Shown: positions 16,365 to 64,000 of the stretch, in pieces
Layout of the letters: every line of letters starts with the position of its first letter
Position numbering within the stretch: the stretch's first letter is position 1
Notes under the pieces: generated by a model
The model's database searches: none
The model's input: only the letters and a program-made list of their open reading frames with translations
What the model was told of the DNA's origin: nothing
NCBI GenBank assembly: GCA_045644945.1
Contig: JAZRHU010000074.1
Location: forward strand, 97 to 64,096
Direction of reading: 5' to 3'
Origin: Candidatus Fimimonas sp.
Lineage (GTDB): Bacteria; Bacillota; Clostridia; Christensenellales; CAG-314
DNA: 64,000 nucleotides
Made by a program: the position numbers and the translations under genes

Positions 16365-16415
16365 GGTTATTTCCTTTTTTGGGGATTGAAGTTGTGCAAT
16401 ATAGTTTTGTGTTTT

Positions 16416-16440
16416 GCGGACGACCAAAGGTCGCCCCTAC
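16416..16440 (-). repeat. REP-like GTAG-headed hairpin
   Basis: Minus strand GTAGGGGCGACCtttGGTCGTCCGC. Confidence 0.6.
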
Positions 16441-48544: not shown

Positions 48545-48559
48545 AGGTGTACAACTTAA

Positions 48560-48720
48560 TTGATAGAGGTTGCGATTTTTATGACAAGCTCAAGCAGTCA
48601 GGAATTTGTTTGAGTGGTAAAGGAAAAGTCGCCGAAGGTTGTTGCTTGAACCTGAAAGAGCAACTGCCTGGGACTACGTAGAACATGCGTAGGACTGTCG
48701 CTAAACGCGGAGAGCTATCG
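48560..48720 (+). promoter_or_regulatory. Lysine riboswitch (L-box)
   Basis: gATAGAGGttGCGA ... GGTAAAGGaaaaGTCGCCGAAGG ... CTGGG ... gGACTGTCgc ... GGAGAGCTATCg; P1 pairs GATAG with CTATC. Matches my recollection of the L-box core. Confidence 0.8.
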
Positions 48721-48738
48721 CACTTGTTTTGGTTACAA

Positions 48739-61914: not shown

Positions 61915-63207
61915 TTATGCGATTGTGTTTTCACTCTTCAAGAATGCCAAGAGTTTTTCTGTGATAACTTGGTTTTCGAAGTAAGCAATTTCGCCTTGAC
62001 CAAGTGTTGCTTTGAATTCGTCAACTGGCTTGCCGATGCGTTCAGCGTACTCAGCAACTTTCTTATCAACGTCCTTCTTTGGAGCCTTGATCTTTTCCGC
62101 CTTTACGATTTCTTCGAATACAAGTCTTGTGTGAACGGCCTTTGTAGCGCGATCTCTGTAGTTGTTTCTCAAATCAAGTTCGGTGGAGTTTGTGTACTTG
62201 TAGTAAGAATCAATATCCAAACCTTGGTACATGAGTTGGTACTTGAAGTCTTCGATGTATTGGTCGATTTGTTCTTCGATCATTTCAACTGGAATGTCGA
62301 TTGTTGTGTTTTCTACAATTGTTTGGATAAGTGTGTCTTCGTCCTTGTCGCTTGCTGCCTTTTCAGCTTGAGCTACCAAGTTCTTTTGGATGTCTGCTTT
62401 GTACTCGTCCAAAGTATCAAACTCGCTTACGTCCTTTGCAAAATCATCATCAAGAGCGGGCAACTCTTTTACGGAGATACCGTTGATTGTGCAAGTGAAC
62501 ACTGCAGGTTTACCAGCAAGGTTTTCTGCGTGGTATTCAGCAGGGAAAGTAACGTTGATATCTTTTGTTTCGCCAATGTTCATACCGATGAGTTGTTCTT
62601 CGAAACCTTCGATAAATGTGTGGGAACCAATTACAAGTGTTTGACCTTGAGCTGTGCCACCTTCGAAAGCTACGCCATCAACAGAACCAGCATAGTCAAG
62701 GTTAACTTGGTCGCCGTCAGCAACTGCACGATCGGTAACTTCTACAAAACGAGCGTTGCGTTCGCGAACCTTTGCAAGTTCTGCATCAACTTGTTCTGCT
62801 GTAACTTCCGCTGGAGTTGTCTTTGCGATTGTAAGACCTTTGTATTCGCCAAGAGCAATTTCTGGACGAACTGTCACAACGATTGCGAAGGATACGCCGT
62901 TGTCGTCAACTTTGATGGATTTGTCGTCGATGGATGGACGAGCAACTGGTTGTGCCTTTTTATTTTTATCCAAAAATTGACCGTAATATTCGTTTGCAGC
63001 AAGGTAAAGTGCATCTTCGAAGAAAAGACCTTTGCCGTATCTGTTTTCCAAAACGGACTTTGGAACGTGGCCCTTTCTAAATCCAGGAACGCTGTACTTA
63101 CCCTTGTTTTGTTCGTAAGCTTTTTTGTCAAATGTAGCCCACTCAGTCATATCCATTTTGAATGTGATTGTGAGTGTGTTGTTATTTCTTTTAGATGTGT
63201 ATTTCAT
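61915..63207 (-). CDS. tig: Trigger factor
   Basis: Start at ATG 63207 after GGAGG. PGFRKGHVP ribosome-binding motif, central FKBP PPIase domain. Confidence 0.9.
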   Translation of the reverse strand: MKYTSKRNNNTLTITFKMDMTEWATFDKKAYEQNKGKYSVPGFRKGHVPKSVLENRYGKGLFFEDALYLAANEYYGQFLDKNKKAQPVARPSIDDKSIKVDDNGVSFAIVVTVRPEIALGEYKGLTIAKTTPAEVTAEQVDAELAKVRERNARFVEVTDRAVADGDQVNLDYAGSVDGVAFEGGTAQGQTLVIGSHTFIEGFEEQLIGMNIGETKDINVTFPAEYHAENLAGKPAVFTCTINGISVKELPALDDDFAKDVSEFDTLDEYKADIQKNLVAQAEKAASDKDEDTLIQTIVENTTIDIPVEMIEEQIDQYIEDFKYQLMYQGLDIDSYYKYTNSTELDLRNNYRDRATKAVHTRLVFEEIVKAEKIKAPKKDVDKKVAEYAERIGKPVDEFKATLGQGEIAYFENQVITEKLLAFLKSENTIA

Positions 63208-63333
63208 TGTTGTCCTCCGACATAATTTTACTGTGCCTTGACGGCATATTTCTACAGTATAGTATTTTAGCACAGTTGTACAAAAAAATCAAGACTTTTT
63301 GTCAATATGTTCATTTTTGTAAAAAGAAATAAT

Positions 63334-63400
63334 AAAAAACACCCAATGACGGCCCCTTACGGCTCTGCCCATTGAGTGAAAACTTAAGTTTTTTTATCCT
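63334..63400 (-). ncRNA. Candidate small RNA unit R1
   Basis: Minus strand TTGCAA-17-TATACT (63435-63407). A-rich 5' part, then hairpin CACUCAAUG...CAUUGGGUG (63378-63340), followed directly by U6. Confidence 0.45.
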
Positions 63401-63452
63401 AGTGTTAGTATATACTATTGTTTCCAAAATTGCAACAGTTTTGGATAAAAAG

Positions 63453-63563
63453 AAAAAAAGCCCACAAACATTGTTTGTGGGGTGCCTTTTCTGTGCACAG
63501 ATGGCGTCATTATTTGCGATTACGGAAGTGCACTCCTAGTACATAAATGTACACGCTCTATGT
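63453..63563 (-). ncRNA. Candidate small RNA unit S3 (about 110 nt)
   Basis: Minus strand TTGCAA-17-TATAAT (63598-63570). Internal GUACAU/AUGUAC and GUGCAC/GUGCAC pairings. Terminator CCCACAAACaatGTTTGTGGG plus U7 (63482-63453). Confidence 0.45.
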
Positions 63564-63619
63564 GTATGTATTATACTCAACTTTAATAAAATTTGCAATA
63601 GTTTTGGATAAAATTGCAC

Positions 63620-63704
63620 AAAAAAAGAAATGACGGGCTTCGAGCCTACCTTTAATCACTTACCACTCAACCGCTTGTAGCAGGAGCGAACGGAATCATT
63701 TCTT
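63620..63704 (-). ncRNA. Candidate small RNA unit S2 (about 85 nt)
   Basis: Minus strand TTGACA-17-TACAAT (63739-63711). The 5' AAGAAAUGA pairs with the 3' UCAUUUCUU to close the whole molecule, followed by U7. Confidence 0.5.
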
Positions 63705-63780
63705 GTTTAGATTGTATCAAATTGTGGATAGGTTGTCAATTATATAAATCAAATAACTGCCCATTTCCAACGTTTGACAT

Positions 63781-63838
63781 AAAAAAGAGCCCACCCCGAC
63801 GGCACAAATTGTCCACAGGGTCCACATCGGCTCTTGTA
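63781..63838 (-). ncRNA. Candidate small RNA unit S1 (about 58 nt)
   Basis: Long hairpin AGAGCCGAUG...CGUCGGggtGGGCUCU followed by U6. Only a weak promoter (TTAATA-17-TAATAT). Confidence 0.3.
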
Positions 63839-63922
63839 AGAATTATATTAGCAAATGTTTGCAATTTTATTAATGGTTTTCATAAAAATAACCTACTACT
63901 GCGACAAGGTACCTAGTAAAAT

Positions 63923-63990
63923 AAAAAAAACACTCAATGACGGCCCCTTACGGCTCTGCCCATTGAGTGAAAACTTAATTTTTTTTGCTT
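63923..63990 (-). ncRNA. Candidate small RNA unit R2 (second copy of R1; promoter truncated by window edge)
   Basis: Near-identical to R1. Hairpin 63969-63931 followed by U8. The sequence equivalent to the R1 -10 region starts at about 63997. Confidence 0.4.
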
Positions 63991-64000
63991 GATGTTAGTA

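What the first reader, a model, noticed from the sequence alone, without database searches (positions are those of the whole stretch)
63334..64000. Tandem array of five promoter-plus-terminator mini transcription units (candidate sRNAs) upstream of tig
On the minus strand, between the window edge and the tig promoter, there are five very short units. Each ends in a hairpin followed directly by a U-run, and three start with near-consensus sigma-A promoters: S2 has TTGACA-17-TACAAT, S3 has TTGCAA-17-TATAAT, and R1 has TTGCAA-17-TATACT. S2 is closed end to end by a 9-bp stem (AAGAAAUGA/UCAUUUCUU). R1 and R2 are near-identical ~75-nt copies 582 bp apart in direct orientation. The only stem difference (C at 63343 versus T at 63934) gives a G.U wobble versus an A-U pair if the RNA is read from the minus strand, but a C.A mismatch on the plus strand, which argues for a minus-strand RNA. 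No unit contains an SD-preceded ORF. I could not match any unit to tRNA, SRP, 6S, tmRNA or a riboswitch class I know. R2 is cut by the window edge, so the array may continue beyond it.
Basis: partly seen in the sequence, partly recalled or inferred. Interest (0 to 1): 0.72.

Follow-up and report, generated by a model that had tools for sequence, protein, structure and literature searches.

The report
Strain-variable array of small-RNA-like units
Just upstream of the trigger-factor gene of an uncultured ruminant-gut Clostridia bacterium lies a row of short promoter-to-terminator units (probable small non-coding RNAs) that are swapped, duplicated or lost as whole modules between near-identical strains, one of them copied from a mobile element; what they do is unknown.

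Summary
On the minus strand of 63334-64000 there are five short units, each ending in a hairpin plus U-run. S2, S3 and R1 have sigma-A-type promoters, and R1/R2 are a 69-nt, 93%-identical direct repeat. No Rfam family, tRNA or conserved ORF matches. About 45 contigs from the same species group (Tig about 97-100% identical) show that these units are discrete modules. The spacer between a 120-aa membrane-protein gene and tig carries at least eight different unit combinations, with breakpoints at promoter boxes and terminator T-runs. S2 follows the membrane gene in nearly every strain. Its promoter and closing stem are invariant, and divergent interiors fold into the same three-way junction with a few compensatory changes. 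S3 is a near-identical copy of a unit found inside a ~6-kb integrative element (IS30-like integrase, Cro/C1-like repressor) that inserts at this same site. Relatives with Tig at or below 93% identity have no such array. The best reading is an accessory, recombination-shuffled cluster of candidate small RNA genes in an integration hotspot. Transcription and function are untested, and a "mobile-element debris" reading remains plausible for some units.

The parts
63923..64000 (-). R2: an R_W-type unit cut by the window edge. The last bases of its -10/start ('tactaaca') are at 64000-63993, followed by an A-rich leader with a weak AU hairpin, a long hairpin (63969-63931) and a T-run (63930-63923).
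   Evidence: The complete homologous unit with its promoter is seen in L099 and L115.
63845..63873 (-). S1 promoter, TTAATA-17-TAATAT, with a degenerate -35 box in this strain.
   Evidence: The same unit has TTGACA-17-TAATAT in L099/L100/L115.
63781..63838 (-). S1 transcript: one long imperfect hairpin (AAGAGCC...GGGCUCUU) followed by U6.
   Evidence: (-21.3 kcal/mol, z -2.0). It is 96% identical in L099/L100/L115.
63711..63739 (-). S2 promoter, TTGACA-17-TACAAT, with an extended -10 TG.
   Evidence: The -35 box, the extended -10 TG and the -10 (TACAAT or TATAAT) are kept in every S2 copy found, about 25 contigs.
63620..63704 (-). S2 RNA (~85 nt). It has a 10-bp closing stem P1 (AAGAAAUGAU/GUCAUUUCUU), a bulged hairpin P2, a hairpin P3 (GGCU-CGA-AGCC) and then U7, making a three-way junction.
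63570..63613 (-). Shared 'R-box' (63613-63589) fused to the S3 promoter TTGCAA-17-TATAAT.
   Evidence: (repeat D2).
63453..63562 (-). S3 RNA (~110 nt) with terminator CCCACAAAC-AAU-GUUUGUGGG plus U7. It is a copy of a unit carried inside an integrative element.
   Evidence: It differs at 3 of ~115 positions from L127 6298-6449.
63407..63450 (-). R1 promoter: the R-box with an inverted repeat (CTGTTG-N12-CAATAG) spanning the -35 TTGCAA and spacer, then -10 TATACT.
63334..63400 (-). R1 RNA (~65 nt): an A-rich leader with the weak hairpin AAAAC-UUAA-GUUUU, then a long hairpin (loop region contains CCGUAAGG) and U6.
63323..63339 (-). Boundary motif TTTTTTATTATTTCTTT that follows the terminators of R-type and U125 units in many strains. 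It is a likely recombination joint.
63264..63292 (-). tig promoter TTGATT-17-TAAAAT with an upstream TG. It is context only and lies downstream of all five units.
   Evidence: (conserved in L001-L004).
61915..63207 (-). tig (trigger factor, 430 aa), preceded by a GGAGG ribosome-binding site. Context only.

Best explanation
The interval is the tig-proximal part of a strain-variable cluster of autonomous non-coding transcription units. Each unit is a sigma-A-type promoter, a 60-115-nt structured RNA and an intrinsic terminator. The cluster sits in a recombination and integration hotspot between a 120-aa membrane-protein gene (weak DUF3792 similarity) and the tig promoter of an uncultured ruminant-gut Clostridia species. 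The following is shown. The units are discrete modules that are present, absent, duplicated or replaced independently in strains whose Tig is about 97-100% identical. The exchange joints fall in a shared promoter box (R-box) and in terminator T-run tails. S3 is a near-exact, promoter-to-terminator copy of a unit located inside a ~6-kb integrative element that inserts at this same site. S2 is nearly universal in the species, with an invariant promoter, an invariant closing stem and interiors that keep one three-way-junction fold. The following is inferred. The units are transcribed into stable small RNAs, with S2 the strongest case. They most likely act as accessory trans-acting riboregulators, and S3 and the R-box promoters belong to the regulatory repertoire of the mobile element. 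Unequal or short-homology recombination between R-boxes and T-run tails, together with element insertion and decay, generates the different arrays.
For: - Promoters and terminators are in register on one strand. There is no Rfam, tRNA or Pfam signal on either strand, and the S2 mini-ORF is not conserved.
- At least eight architectures occur among contigs carrying identical or near-identical Tig: S2-R_L-T2; S2-R_L; S2-R_W-S1-S2-R_L-T2; the same with X instead of T2; S2-R_L-U125-T2; U125 alone; R_L-U125; and the window's R_W-S1-S2-S3-R_W.
- S2 directly follows the membrane-gene stop codon in 22 of 23 contigs where that junction is visible.
- There are 13 distinct S2 alleles in four classes, and each class folds as P1+P2+P3 (z down to -3.3). 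On the alignable alleles 98% of cells are paired, against 30-65% when partners are slid. One pair changes C-G to A-U, and several change between G-C or A-U and G.U. By my hand alignment, the b alleles add two more double-sided changes in inner P2 and a different sequence that still forms P3.
- All stem differences in R units keep pairing only on the minus strand.
- The window and element copies of S3 differ at 3 of ~115 positions, and homology runs only from the R-box to the T-run.
- The element carries an IS30-like HTH_38+rve integrase and a Cro/C1-type HTH protein and is flanked by 13-bp direct repeats next to the tig promoter.
- Relatives with Tig at or below 93% identity lack the units.
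Against: - No expression data could be examined.
- Covariation rests on few independent events (12 of 500 shuffles reach the observed score), and P1 and P3 never vary within the alignable alleles.
- The S2 'terminator' is atypical, because its stem encloses about 60 nt.
- The -10 box of R_L units is polymorphic (TATACC, TATGCT, TACACT, TATGTT, TAGGTT) while its hairpins are conserved. This fits selection on a terminator rather than on an expressed gene.
- The S1 -35 box is degraded in the window.
- No target complementarity beat shuffled controls consistently.
- The units were found nowhere else: not in the other 63 kb of the window, the relatives' loci, the viral collection or the JGI metagenomes. 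There is therefore no deep conservation.
Confidence: 0.55

Rival explanations
1. The units are mobile-element debris. They would be promoters, short leader fragments and terminators left behind by repeated insertion, recombination and deletion of integrative elements at the site upstream of tig. Any transcription would be incidental and the RNAs would have no function.
For: - The site is a demonstrated integration hotspot. A 6-kb element lies here in L092/L094/L117/L119/L121/L122/L127/L128, and a 376-nt insert X flanked by 15-bp direct repeats shares the element's 24-nt terminal sequence.
- S3 is demonstrably element-derived.
- R-type promoters share their box with the element's S3 promoter.
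- R_L -10 boxes and the S1 -35 box are decaying in some strains.
- There is no conservation outside one species group.
Against: - S2 is present in 22 of 23 strains with an invariant consensus promoter. Its stems are maintained across alleles whose interiors differ by up to about half of positions.
- S3 was retained precisely from promoter to terminator with only 3 changes.
- S2, S1, R_W, R_L and U125 have no match in the element sequences available.
Confidence: 0.28
2. The region is a terminator or insulator stack. What is selected would be the hairpin/U-run elements, which end transcription of the upstream membrane-protein gene and of outward-reading element promoters so that tig is expressed only from its own promoter. 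The promoters would be by-products.
For: - The membrane gene has no terminator of its own before S2, and its stop codon abuts the S2 -35 box.
- Hairpins of R_L are more conserved than its -10 box.
- An additional promoter-less terminator, T2, precedes the tig promoter in most strains and in the more distant L002-L004.
- R hairpins are flanked by A- and T-runs, so they could terminate in both directions.
Against: - One terminator would suffice, yet arrays carry up to six or seven.
- The consensus S2 promoter (11/12 with extended -10) is invariant.
- The S2 three-way junction is far more elaborate than a terminator needs, and it is a poor canonical terminator.
Confidence: 0.12
3. The region is a cis-regulatory leader (attenuator or riboswitch) of tig, or it holds small protein or type I toxin-antitoxin genes.
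For: The units lie close to tig and on the same strand. Short ORFs exist in the region.
Against: - The tig promoter lies downstream of all units and is conserved independently of them.
- The units are absent upstream of tig in relatives and vary between strains with identical Tig.
- No ORF has a Shine-Dalgarno sequence, a Pfam match or conservation. The S2 mini-ORF gives unrelated peptides in the four allele classes.
Confidence: 0.03

Closest known systems
Tandemly encoded 'sibling' sRNA genes (PrrF1-PrrF2/PrrH, OmrA-OmrB, AbcR1-AbcR2; review PMC4211561)
   Same: Adjacent short genes on one strand, each with its own promoter and Rho-independent terminator. Copy number and arrangement vary between strains or species. 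Siblings have conserved ends and divergent middles, as OmrA/B do. Read-through of the first terminator can create a longer RNA (PrrH), which is conceivable for S2 followed by R.
   Different: Only R1/R2, and the S2 duplicates in other strains, are siblings. S1, S2, S3 and R are mutually unrelated. The array differs between strains of one species as whole cassettes. No transcript, Hfq dependence, seed or target is known here.
sRNA genes carried by prophages and integrative elements and left in chromosomal hotspots (my general knowledge, e.g. DicF and IpeX of cryptic E. coli prophages; not checked in the paper library)
   Same: S3 lies inside an integrative element between convergent gene blocks. 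It also occurs as an orphan copy in the chromosome at the element's insertion site.
   Different: Here the orphan copy is bounded exactly by promoter and terminator and is embedded among non-element units. The element is a small IS30-like-integrase element and not a prophage.
TnGBS/ISLre2-type elements whose DDE transposase inserts 15-17 bp upstream of sigma-A promoters (PMC3942029)
   Same: An element with a DDE-type enzyme instead of a tyrosine integrase, found repeatedly immediately upstream of a housekeeping sigma-A promoter (tig).
   Different: The enzyme here is IS30-like (HTH_38+rve), not Mutator-like. The flanking direct repeats are 13-15 bp. The distance to the tig -35 box is about 21 bp (8 bp to an upstream TTGACA). 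Promoter targeting was seen at one site only, so specificity is not established.
3'-UTR-embedded sRNAs with their own promoter at the end of the upstream gene (e.g. MicL, DapZ; my own knowledge)
   Same: The S2 promoter starts 1-3 nt after the membrane-gene stop codon, and S2 supplies the only terminator for that gene. S2 could therefore be made both from its own promoter and from the mRNA 3' end.
   Different: The promoter here lies after the stop codon and not inside the coding sequence. A second S2 copy in the window, L099 and L115 sits away from any coding gene.

Membership tests
Any Rfam 15 family (tRNA, tmRNA, SRP, 6S, riboswitches, described sRNAs) | Covariance-model score at or above the family's gathering threshold | tested here: not met
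   The best hits are chance matches to eukaryotic miRNA or snoRNA models, far below threshold. ARAGORN finds no tRNA or tmRNA.
Tandem sibling-sRNA gene cluster | Two or more adjacent genes, each with its own promoter and intrinsic terminator, on one strand | tested here: met
   The units are confirmed as separable modules by presence/absence polymorphism.
Tandem sibling-sRNA gene cluster | Members are homologous to one another (siblings) | tested here: inconclusive
   R1/R2 are 93% identical, and S2 is duplicated in L099/L100/L115. S1, S2, S3 and R share only the R-box promoter (S3, R) and nothing else.
Tandem sibling-sRNA gene cluster | Discrete small transcripts are produced | not testable with these tools
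   No RNA-seq or Term-seq data are accessible.
Tandem sibling-sRNA gene cluster | Base-pairing seed with identifiable mRNA targets | tested here: inconclusive
   RNAduplex against 15 translation-initiation regions of neighbouring and element genes gave no hit consistent across alleles and better than shuffles. Less than 3% of the genome was available.
Structured RNA under purifying selection on its fold (applied to S2) | Base pairs maintained through compensatory substitutions in homologues | tested here: inconclusive
   98% of cells are paired and one double-sided pair occurs in the alignable alleles, with 12 of 500 shuffles as high. Two more double-sided changes and a replaced but still pairing P3 are seen in the b alleles by hand alignment. 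Independent events are few.
Intrinsic (Rho-independent) terminator | G+C-containing hairpin followed directly by a U-run | tested here: met
   Met for R1, R2, S1 and S3. S2 is atypical: its U7 follows a 10-bp stem that closes a 60-nt interior.
Mobile-element-borne sRNA gene (applied to S3) | The same unit is located inside a delimited mobile element | tested here: met
   L127 6298-6449 and L128 2452-2603 lie inside an element with an IS30-like integrase, flanked by 13-bp direct repeats.
cis-regulatory leader or riboswitch of tig | Lies between the tig promoter and start codon and is conserved together with tig | tested here: not met
   The tig promoter (63292-63264) is downstream of all units. 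The units are absent in L002-L004 and in 25 more distant relatives.
Small protein or type I toxin-antitoxin locus | ORF preceded by a Shine-Dalgarno sequence and conserved between alleles | tested here: not met

The most novel reading that the evidence does not exclude
The locus could be a cassette-exchange site for small RNA genes. In this reading an integrative element with an IS30-like integrase delivers promoter-to-terminator RNA cassettes next to the tig promoter, and recombination at a shared operator-bearing promoter box (CTATTG-N12-CAATAG) and at terminator tails shuffles them. The chromosomal R-type and S3 units would be wired to the element's Cro/C1-like repressor, giving cross-talk between host and element (for example immunity or exclusion specified by RNA). 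The hypervariable S2 interior would then reflect diversifying selection on a specificity determinant.
Probability: 0.12. Interest if true: 0.7.

Novelty: new member of a known kind. Interest (0 to 1): 0.42.

Why it matters
If the units are expressed, this lineage carries several previously undescribed small RNA families, and S2 would be a species-wide three-way-junction RNA. The locus would also illustrate how sRNA repertoires can turn over within a species: as whole promoter-to-terminator modules, partly imported from a mobile element, at a hotspot beside a housekeeping promoter. It gives a concrete, testable example for the open question of how bacterial sRNA genes are born and exchanged. 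If the units are only debris, the locus still documents a site-specific integration hotspot upstream of tig and a small, uncharacterised class of integrative element in ruminant-gut Clostridia.

Tried and rejected
- Rfam at E<=10 on the region, gathering mode on the whole window, and E-value mode on the alleles and the element gave nothing real.
- ARAGORN found no tRNA or tmRNA.
- Exact look-ups of the window's Tig and ClpP to extend the contig failed because neither is on record. What lies beyond 64000 is therefore inferred from L099/L115.
- blastn of the region against phage records gave no match.
- Seven viral-collection scans with unit cores (S1, S2, S3, R_W, R_L, U125, X) gave 0 hits.
- Two JGI metagenome scans (tig promoter, R-box promoter) gave 0 hits, even though some JGI contigs of this species exist. 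The exact-match patterns were probably too strict.
- nhmmer, blastn and a covariance model of S2 against all held sequence found no copies outside this locus and species group.
- The idea that S2 is tRNA-like, a hammerhead or an SRP RNA was considered from its shape and rejected. It has no core motifs and no Rfam or ARAGORN hit.
- An alternative outer P2 pairing (UCGCU/AGUGA) was tested. It shows G.U, A-U and G-C states at one pair but fails in the c alleles, so it is left open.
- A target search by RNAduplex was uninformative (the first attempt timed out).
- The operator idea for the R-box inverted repeat was checked. The repeat is not found elsewhere in the element, so the idea stays speculative.
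- X as a deletion derivative of the 6-kb element was rejected in that form, because only the 24-nt terminus is shared.

Full report
**1. The observation**

Read on the minus strand, window 64000-63320 contains five short units upstream of tig (ATG at 63207, preceded by GGAGG).

- The consensus scan finds TTGACA-17-TACAAT with an upstream TG (63739-63711), TTGCAA-17-TATAAT (63598-63570) and TTGCAA-17-TATACT (63435-63407). All are on the minus strand and all lie upstream of the tig promoter TTGATT-17-TAAAAT (63292-63264).
- Only 30 sites scoring at least 10/12 exist on both strands of the whole 64-kb window.
- Hairpin plus T-run ends follow each unit.
- S2 is closed by a 10-bp stem between its first and last bases, followed by U7.
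- R1 and R2 are a 69-nt direct repeat, 93% identical, with 591 nt start-to-start spacing. The 31-nt hairpin core occurs twice against 0 expected.
- The single stem difference (63343 versus 63934) is G.U versus A-U only in a minus-strand RNA.
- No Rfam family reaches threshold in sensitive mode and no tRNA or tmRNA is found.
- The small ORFs on either strand have no Shine-Dalgarno sequence and no Pfam match.

**2. Organism and context**

The Tig protein retrieves MAG contigs of uncultured Clostridia from goat, sheep and roe-deer gut. L001 (RGIG2098, goat colon) is 99% identical. The conserved gene order is tgt - yajC - (variable) - 120-aa membrane protein - (variable spacer) - tig - clpP - clpX. 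The membrane protein has only a weak, sub-threshold DUF3792 match.

Through Tig cluster members I obtained about 45 further contigs of the same species group, with Tig differing from the window's by 4-13 residues.

**3. The units are independent modules**

Cataloguing the spacer between the membrane gene and tig gives at least eight architectures among these near-identical strains:

- S2-R_L-T2, about 395 nt, the commonest.
- S2-R_L.
- S2-R_W-S1-S2-R_L-T2 (L115).
- S2-R_W-S1-S2-R_L-X (L099/L100, 1172 nt).
- S2-R_L-U125-T2 (L118/L129).
- U125 alone (L105).
- R_L-U125 (L103/L107).
- The window's ...R_W-S1-S2-S3-R_W.

The module names are as follows:

- R_W is the window's R hairpin type.
- R_L has the same promoter and the same post-terminator tail (TTTTTTATTATTTTTCT), but a different weak AU hairpin plus terminator hairpin.
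- U125 is a TTGACA-17-TATACT unit with a ~125-nt RNA.
- T2 is a promoter-less terminator that is also present in the 89-93% relatives.

Presence/absence boundaries coincide with promoter starts and T-run ends. Repeated joints are the R-box (TGCAATTTTAYC-AAAACTRTTGCAA...) and the terminator tail.

Three further points follow from this comparison:

- R2's first bases match the -10/start of the R promoter, and L099/L115 show the complete unit preceded by an S2. The array therefore very probably continues beyond the window with an S2 and the membrane gene.
- S1 has TTGACA-17-TAATAT in L099/L115 but TTAATA in the window.
- Relatives with Tig at or below 93% identity have unrelated sequence here. 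The more distant ones have only the tig promoter and at most one or two terminators.

**4. S2**

S2 follows the membrane-gene stop codon by 1-3 nt in 22 of 23 contigs where the junction is visible. Its -35 box, extended -10 TG and -10 (TACAAT or TATAAT) are kept in all copies.

Thirteen distinct sequences fall into four classes (a, d, c, b). P1 and the U-run are invariant apart from one A-U to G.U change. The interiors differ by up to about half of their positions, yet each class folds as P1 + bulged P2 + P3, with z-scores from -1.3 to -3.3.

On the ten alignable alleles my structure has 98% of cells paired, against 30-65% for slid partners. One pair switches C-G to A-U, and four vary between G-C or A-U and G.U. 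Twelve of 500 shuffles reach the observed score. Aligning the b alleles by hand adds G-C to C-G and C-G to A-U changes in inner P2, and a different sequence that again forms P3.

This is suggestive but not decisive, because the events are few. The short ATG-initiated frame inside S2 encodes unrelated peptides in the four classes. A covariance model finds S2 only in this species group. The S2 terminator is unusual, since its stem encloses about 60 nt. S2 is always followed by an R or S3 unit with a canonical terminator, so a read-through product, as for PrrF1-PrrF2/PrrH, is conceivable.

**5. S3 and the mobile element**

S3 has no counterpart in other arrays. It has a 91% match in L117/L119 over its full length including the promoter, 3.5 kb upstream of tig.

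The wider locus L127 shows a ~6-kb insertion immediately after T2, flanked by 13-bp direct repeats (CTTTTTCTTTTGC) and ending 8 bp from a TTGACA that precedes the tig promoter. It encodes:

- an IS30-like HTH_38+rve transposase/integrase;
- a Cro/C1-type HTH protein;
- several unknown proteins;
- a replication-type module that varies between strains (578 or 639 aa, or a Rep_OBD+helicase protein).

S3 sits inside this element between convergent gene blocks, with an R-box promoter of perfect TTGCAA-17-TATAAT. Its transcribed part differs from the window copy at only 3 positions, and homology starts in the R-box and stops at the T-run. The window's S3 is therefore an imported, precisely bounded copy.

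The 376-nt insert X in L099 is flanked by 15-bp direct repeats and contains another promoter-terminator unit. It shares the element's 24-nt terminal sequence but nothing else.

The R-box carries an inverted repeat CTATTG-N12-CAATAG across the -35 box and spacer, in most R promoters and in the element's S3 promoter. It occurs nowhere else in the element, so an operator role is only a conjecture.

**6. Points against simple 'five sRNA genes'**

- The R_L -10 hexamer is polymorphic and often lacks the conserved final T, while its hairpins are almost invariant.
- The S1 -35 box has decayed in the window.
- No unit occurs outside this locus in any sequence I could search.
- No target complementarity stood out.

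Some units may therefore be terminators or decaying remnants.

**7. Interpretation**

The best-supported reading (confidence about 0.55) is an accessory, recombination-shuffled cluster of orphan promoter-to-terminator RNA units in an integration hotspot. S2 is the strongest candidate for a functional structured sRNA, and S3 is an element-derived sRNA gene.

The main rival (about 0.28) is non-functional mobile-element debris. A terminator or insulator role (about 0.12) may coexist with either. A tig leader or a small-protein locus is disfavoured, because the tig promoter lies downstream of all units, the units are absent from relatives and no ORF is conserved.

**8. Comparison with known systems**

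The closest known kind is tandem sibling sRNA genes (PrrF1/2, OmrA/B, AbcR1/2; PMC4211561). Here only R1/R2 and the S2 duplicates are siblings, and whole units assort between strains.

S3 resembles sRNAs carried by mobile elements. The element's position next to a sigma-A promoter recalls TnGBS/ISLre2 (PMC3942029), but its enzyme is IS30-like and its insertion specificity is unproven.

None of the RNAs belongs to a described family. I rate the finding as a new member of a known kind (candidate sRNA genes or cluster), of moderate interest.

Noticed in passing
L127 3908-9880 (also L128, L117, L119, L121; variants in L092, L094, L122): A ~6-kb integrative element lies between T2 and the tig promoter. 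It has an IS30-like HTH_38+rve integrase, a Cro/C1-type HTH protein, several unknown ORFs and interchangeable replication modules (578/639-aa unknown proteins, or a 384-aa Rep_OBD+helicase). It is flanked by 13-bp direct repeats CTTTTTCTTTTGC. Its class and mobility mechanism are uncharacterised.
   Followed up: partly
L099 2501-2905 (also L096, L100, L102): A 376-nt AT-rich insert 'X' is flanked by 15-bp direct repeats CAAAATCAACATCTT that overlap the TTGACA upstream of the tig promoter. It starts with the same 24 nt as the 6-kb element and holds its own TTGACT-17-TATAAT promoter plus a terminator. It may be a miniature non-autonomous relative of the element.
   Followed up: partly
between yajC and the 120-aa membrane gene: L001 1515-2954; L091 990-2006; L099 690-1397; L109/L127 (FtsK-like): A second variable slot lies one gene further upstream. 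It holds an LRR_5 surface-type protein (479 aa), a 338-aa unknown protein, a 235-aa FtsK/SpoIIIE-like ATPase with further unknown ORFs, or nothing, depending on the strain.
   Followed up: no
window 63415-63438 (-); L127 6302-6325: An inverted repeat CTRTTG-N12-CAATAG spans the -35 box and spacer of R-type promoters and of the element's S3 promoter. It looks like an operator, but no second site was found in the element.
   Followed up: partly
R_L promoters in L091, L093, L101, L104, L108 (about 200 nt upstream of tig): The -10 hexamer of the R_L unit is polymorphic (TATACC, TATACT, TATGCT, TACACT, TATGTT, TAGGTT) while the downstream hairpins are nearly invariant. This could mean promoter decay or variable expression between strains.
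   Followed up: partly
window 48556-48725 (+): A lysine riboswitch (RF00168, 85 bits) is the only Rfam family above threshold in the whole window.
   Followed up: no
window 16414-16440; L107 199-225; L085 4577-4602 and 4828-4853; L110, L114, L002: A ~26-nt G+C-rich palindromic sequence (GGGGCGACCTGCGGTCGTCC...) recurs at several unrelated intergenic places in this species group. It may be a small REP-like repeat or a common terminator.
   Followed up: no
L001 3727-3751; L002 5858-5882; L003 5738-5762; L004 1133-1157: The promoter-less terminator T2 (AAGTGGCAG..TTGCCACTTTTT) just upstream of the tig promoter is conserved down to relatives with Tig 89-93% identical. It is absent from the window, where R1's terminator takes its place.
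   Followed up: partly
L003 4640-4700; L004 1-30: In the 89-90% relatives, a different hairpin+T-run followed by the same tail motif (TTTTTTATTATTTG) lies between yajC and the membrane gene. Similar terminator-tail modules may therefore exist at other spacers.
   Followed up: no
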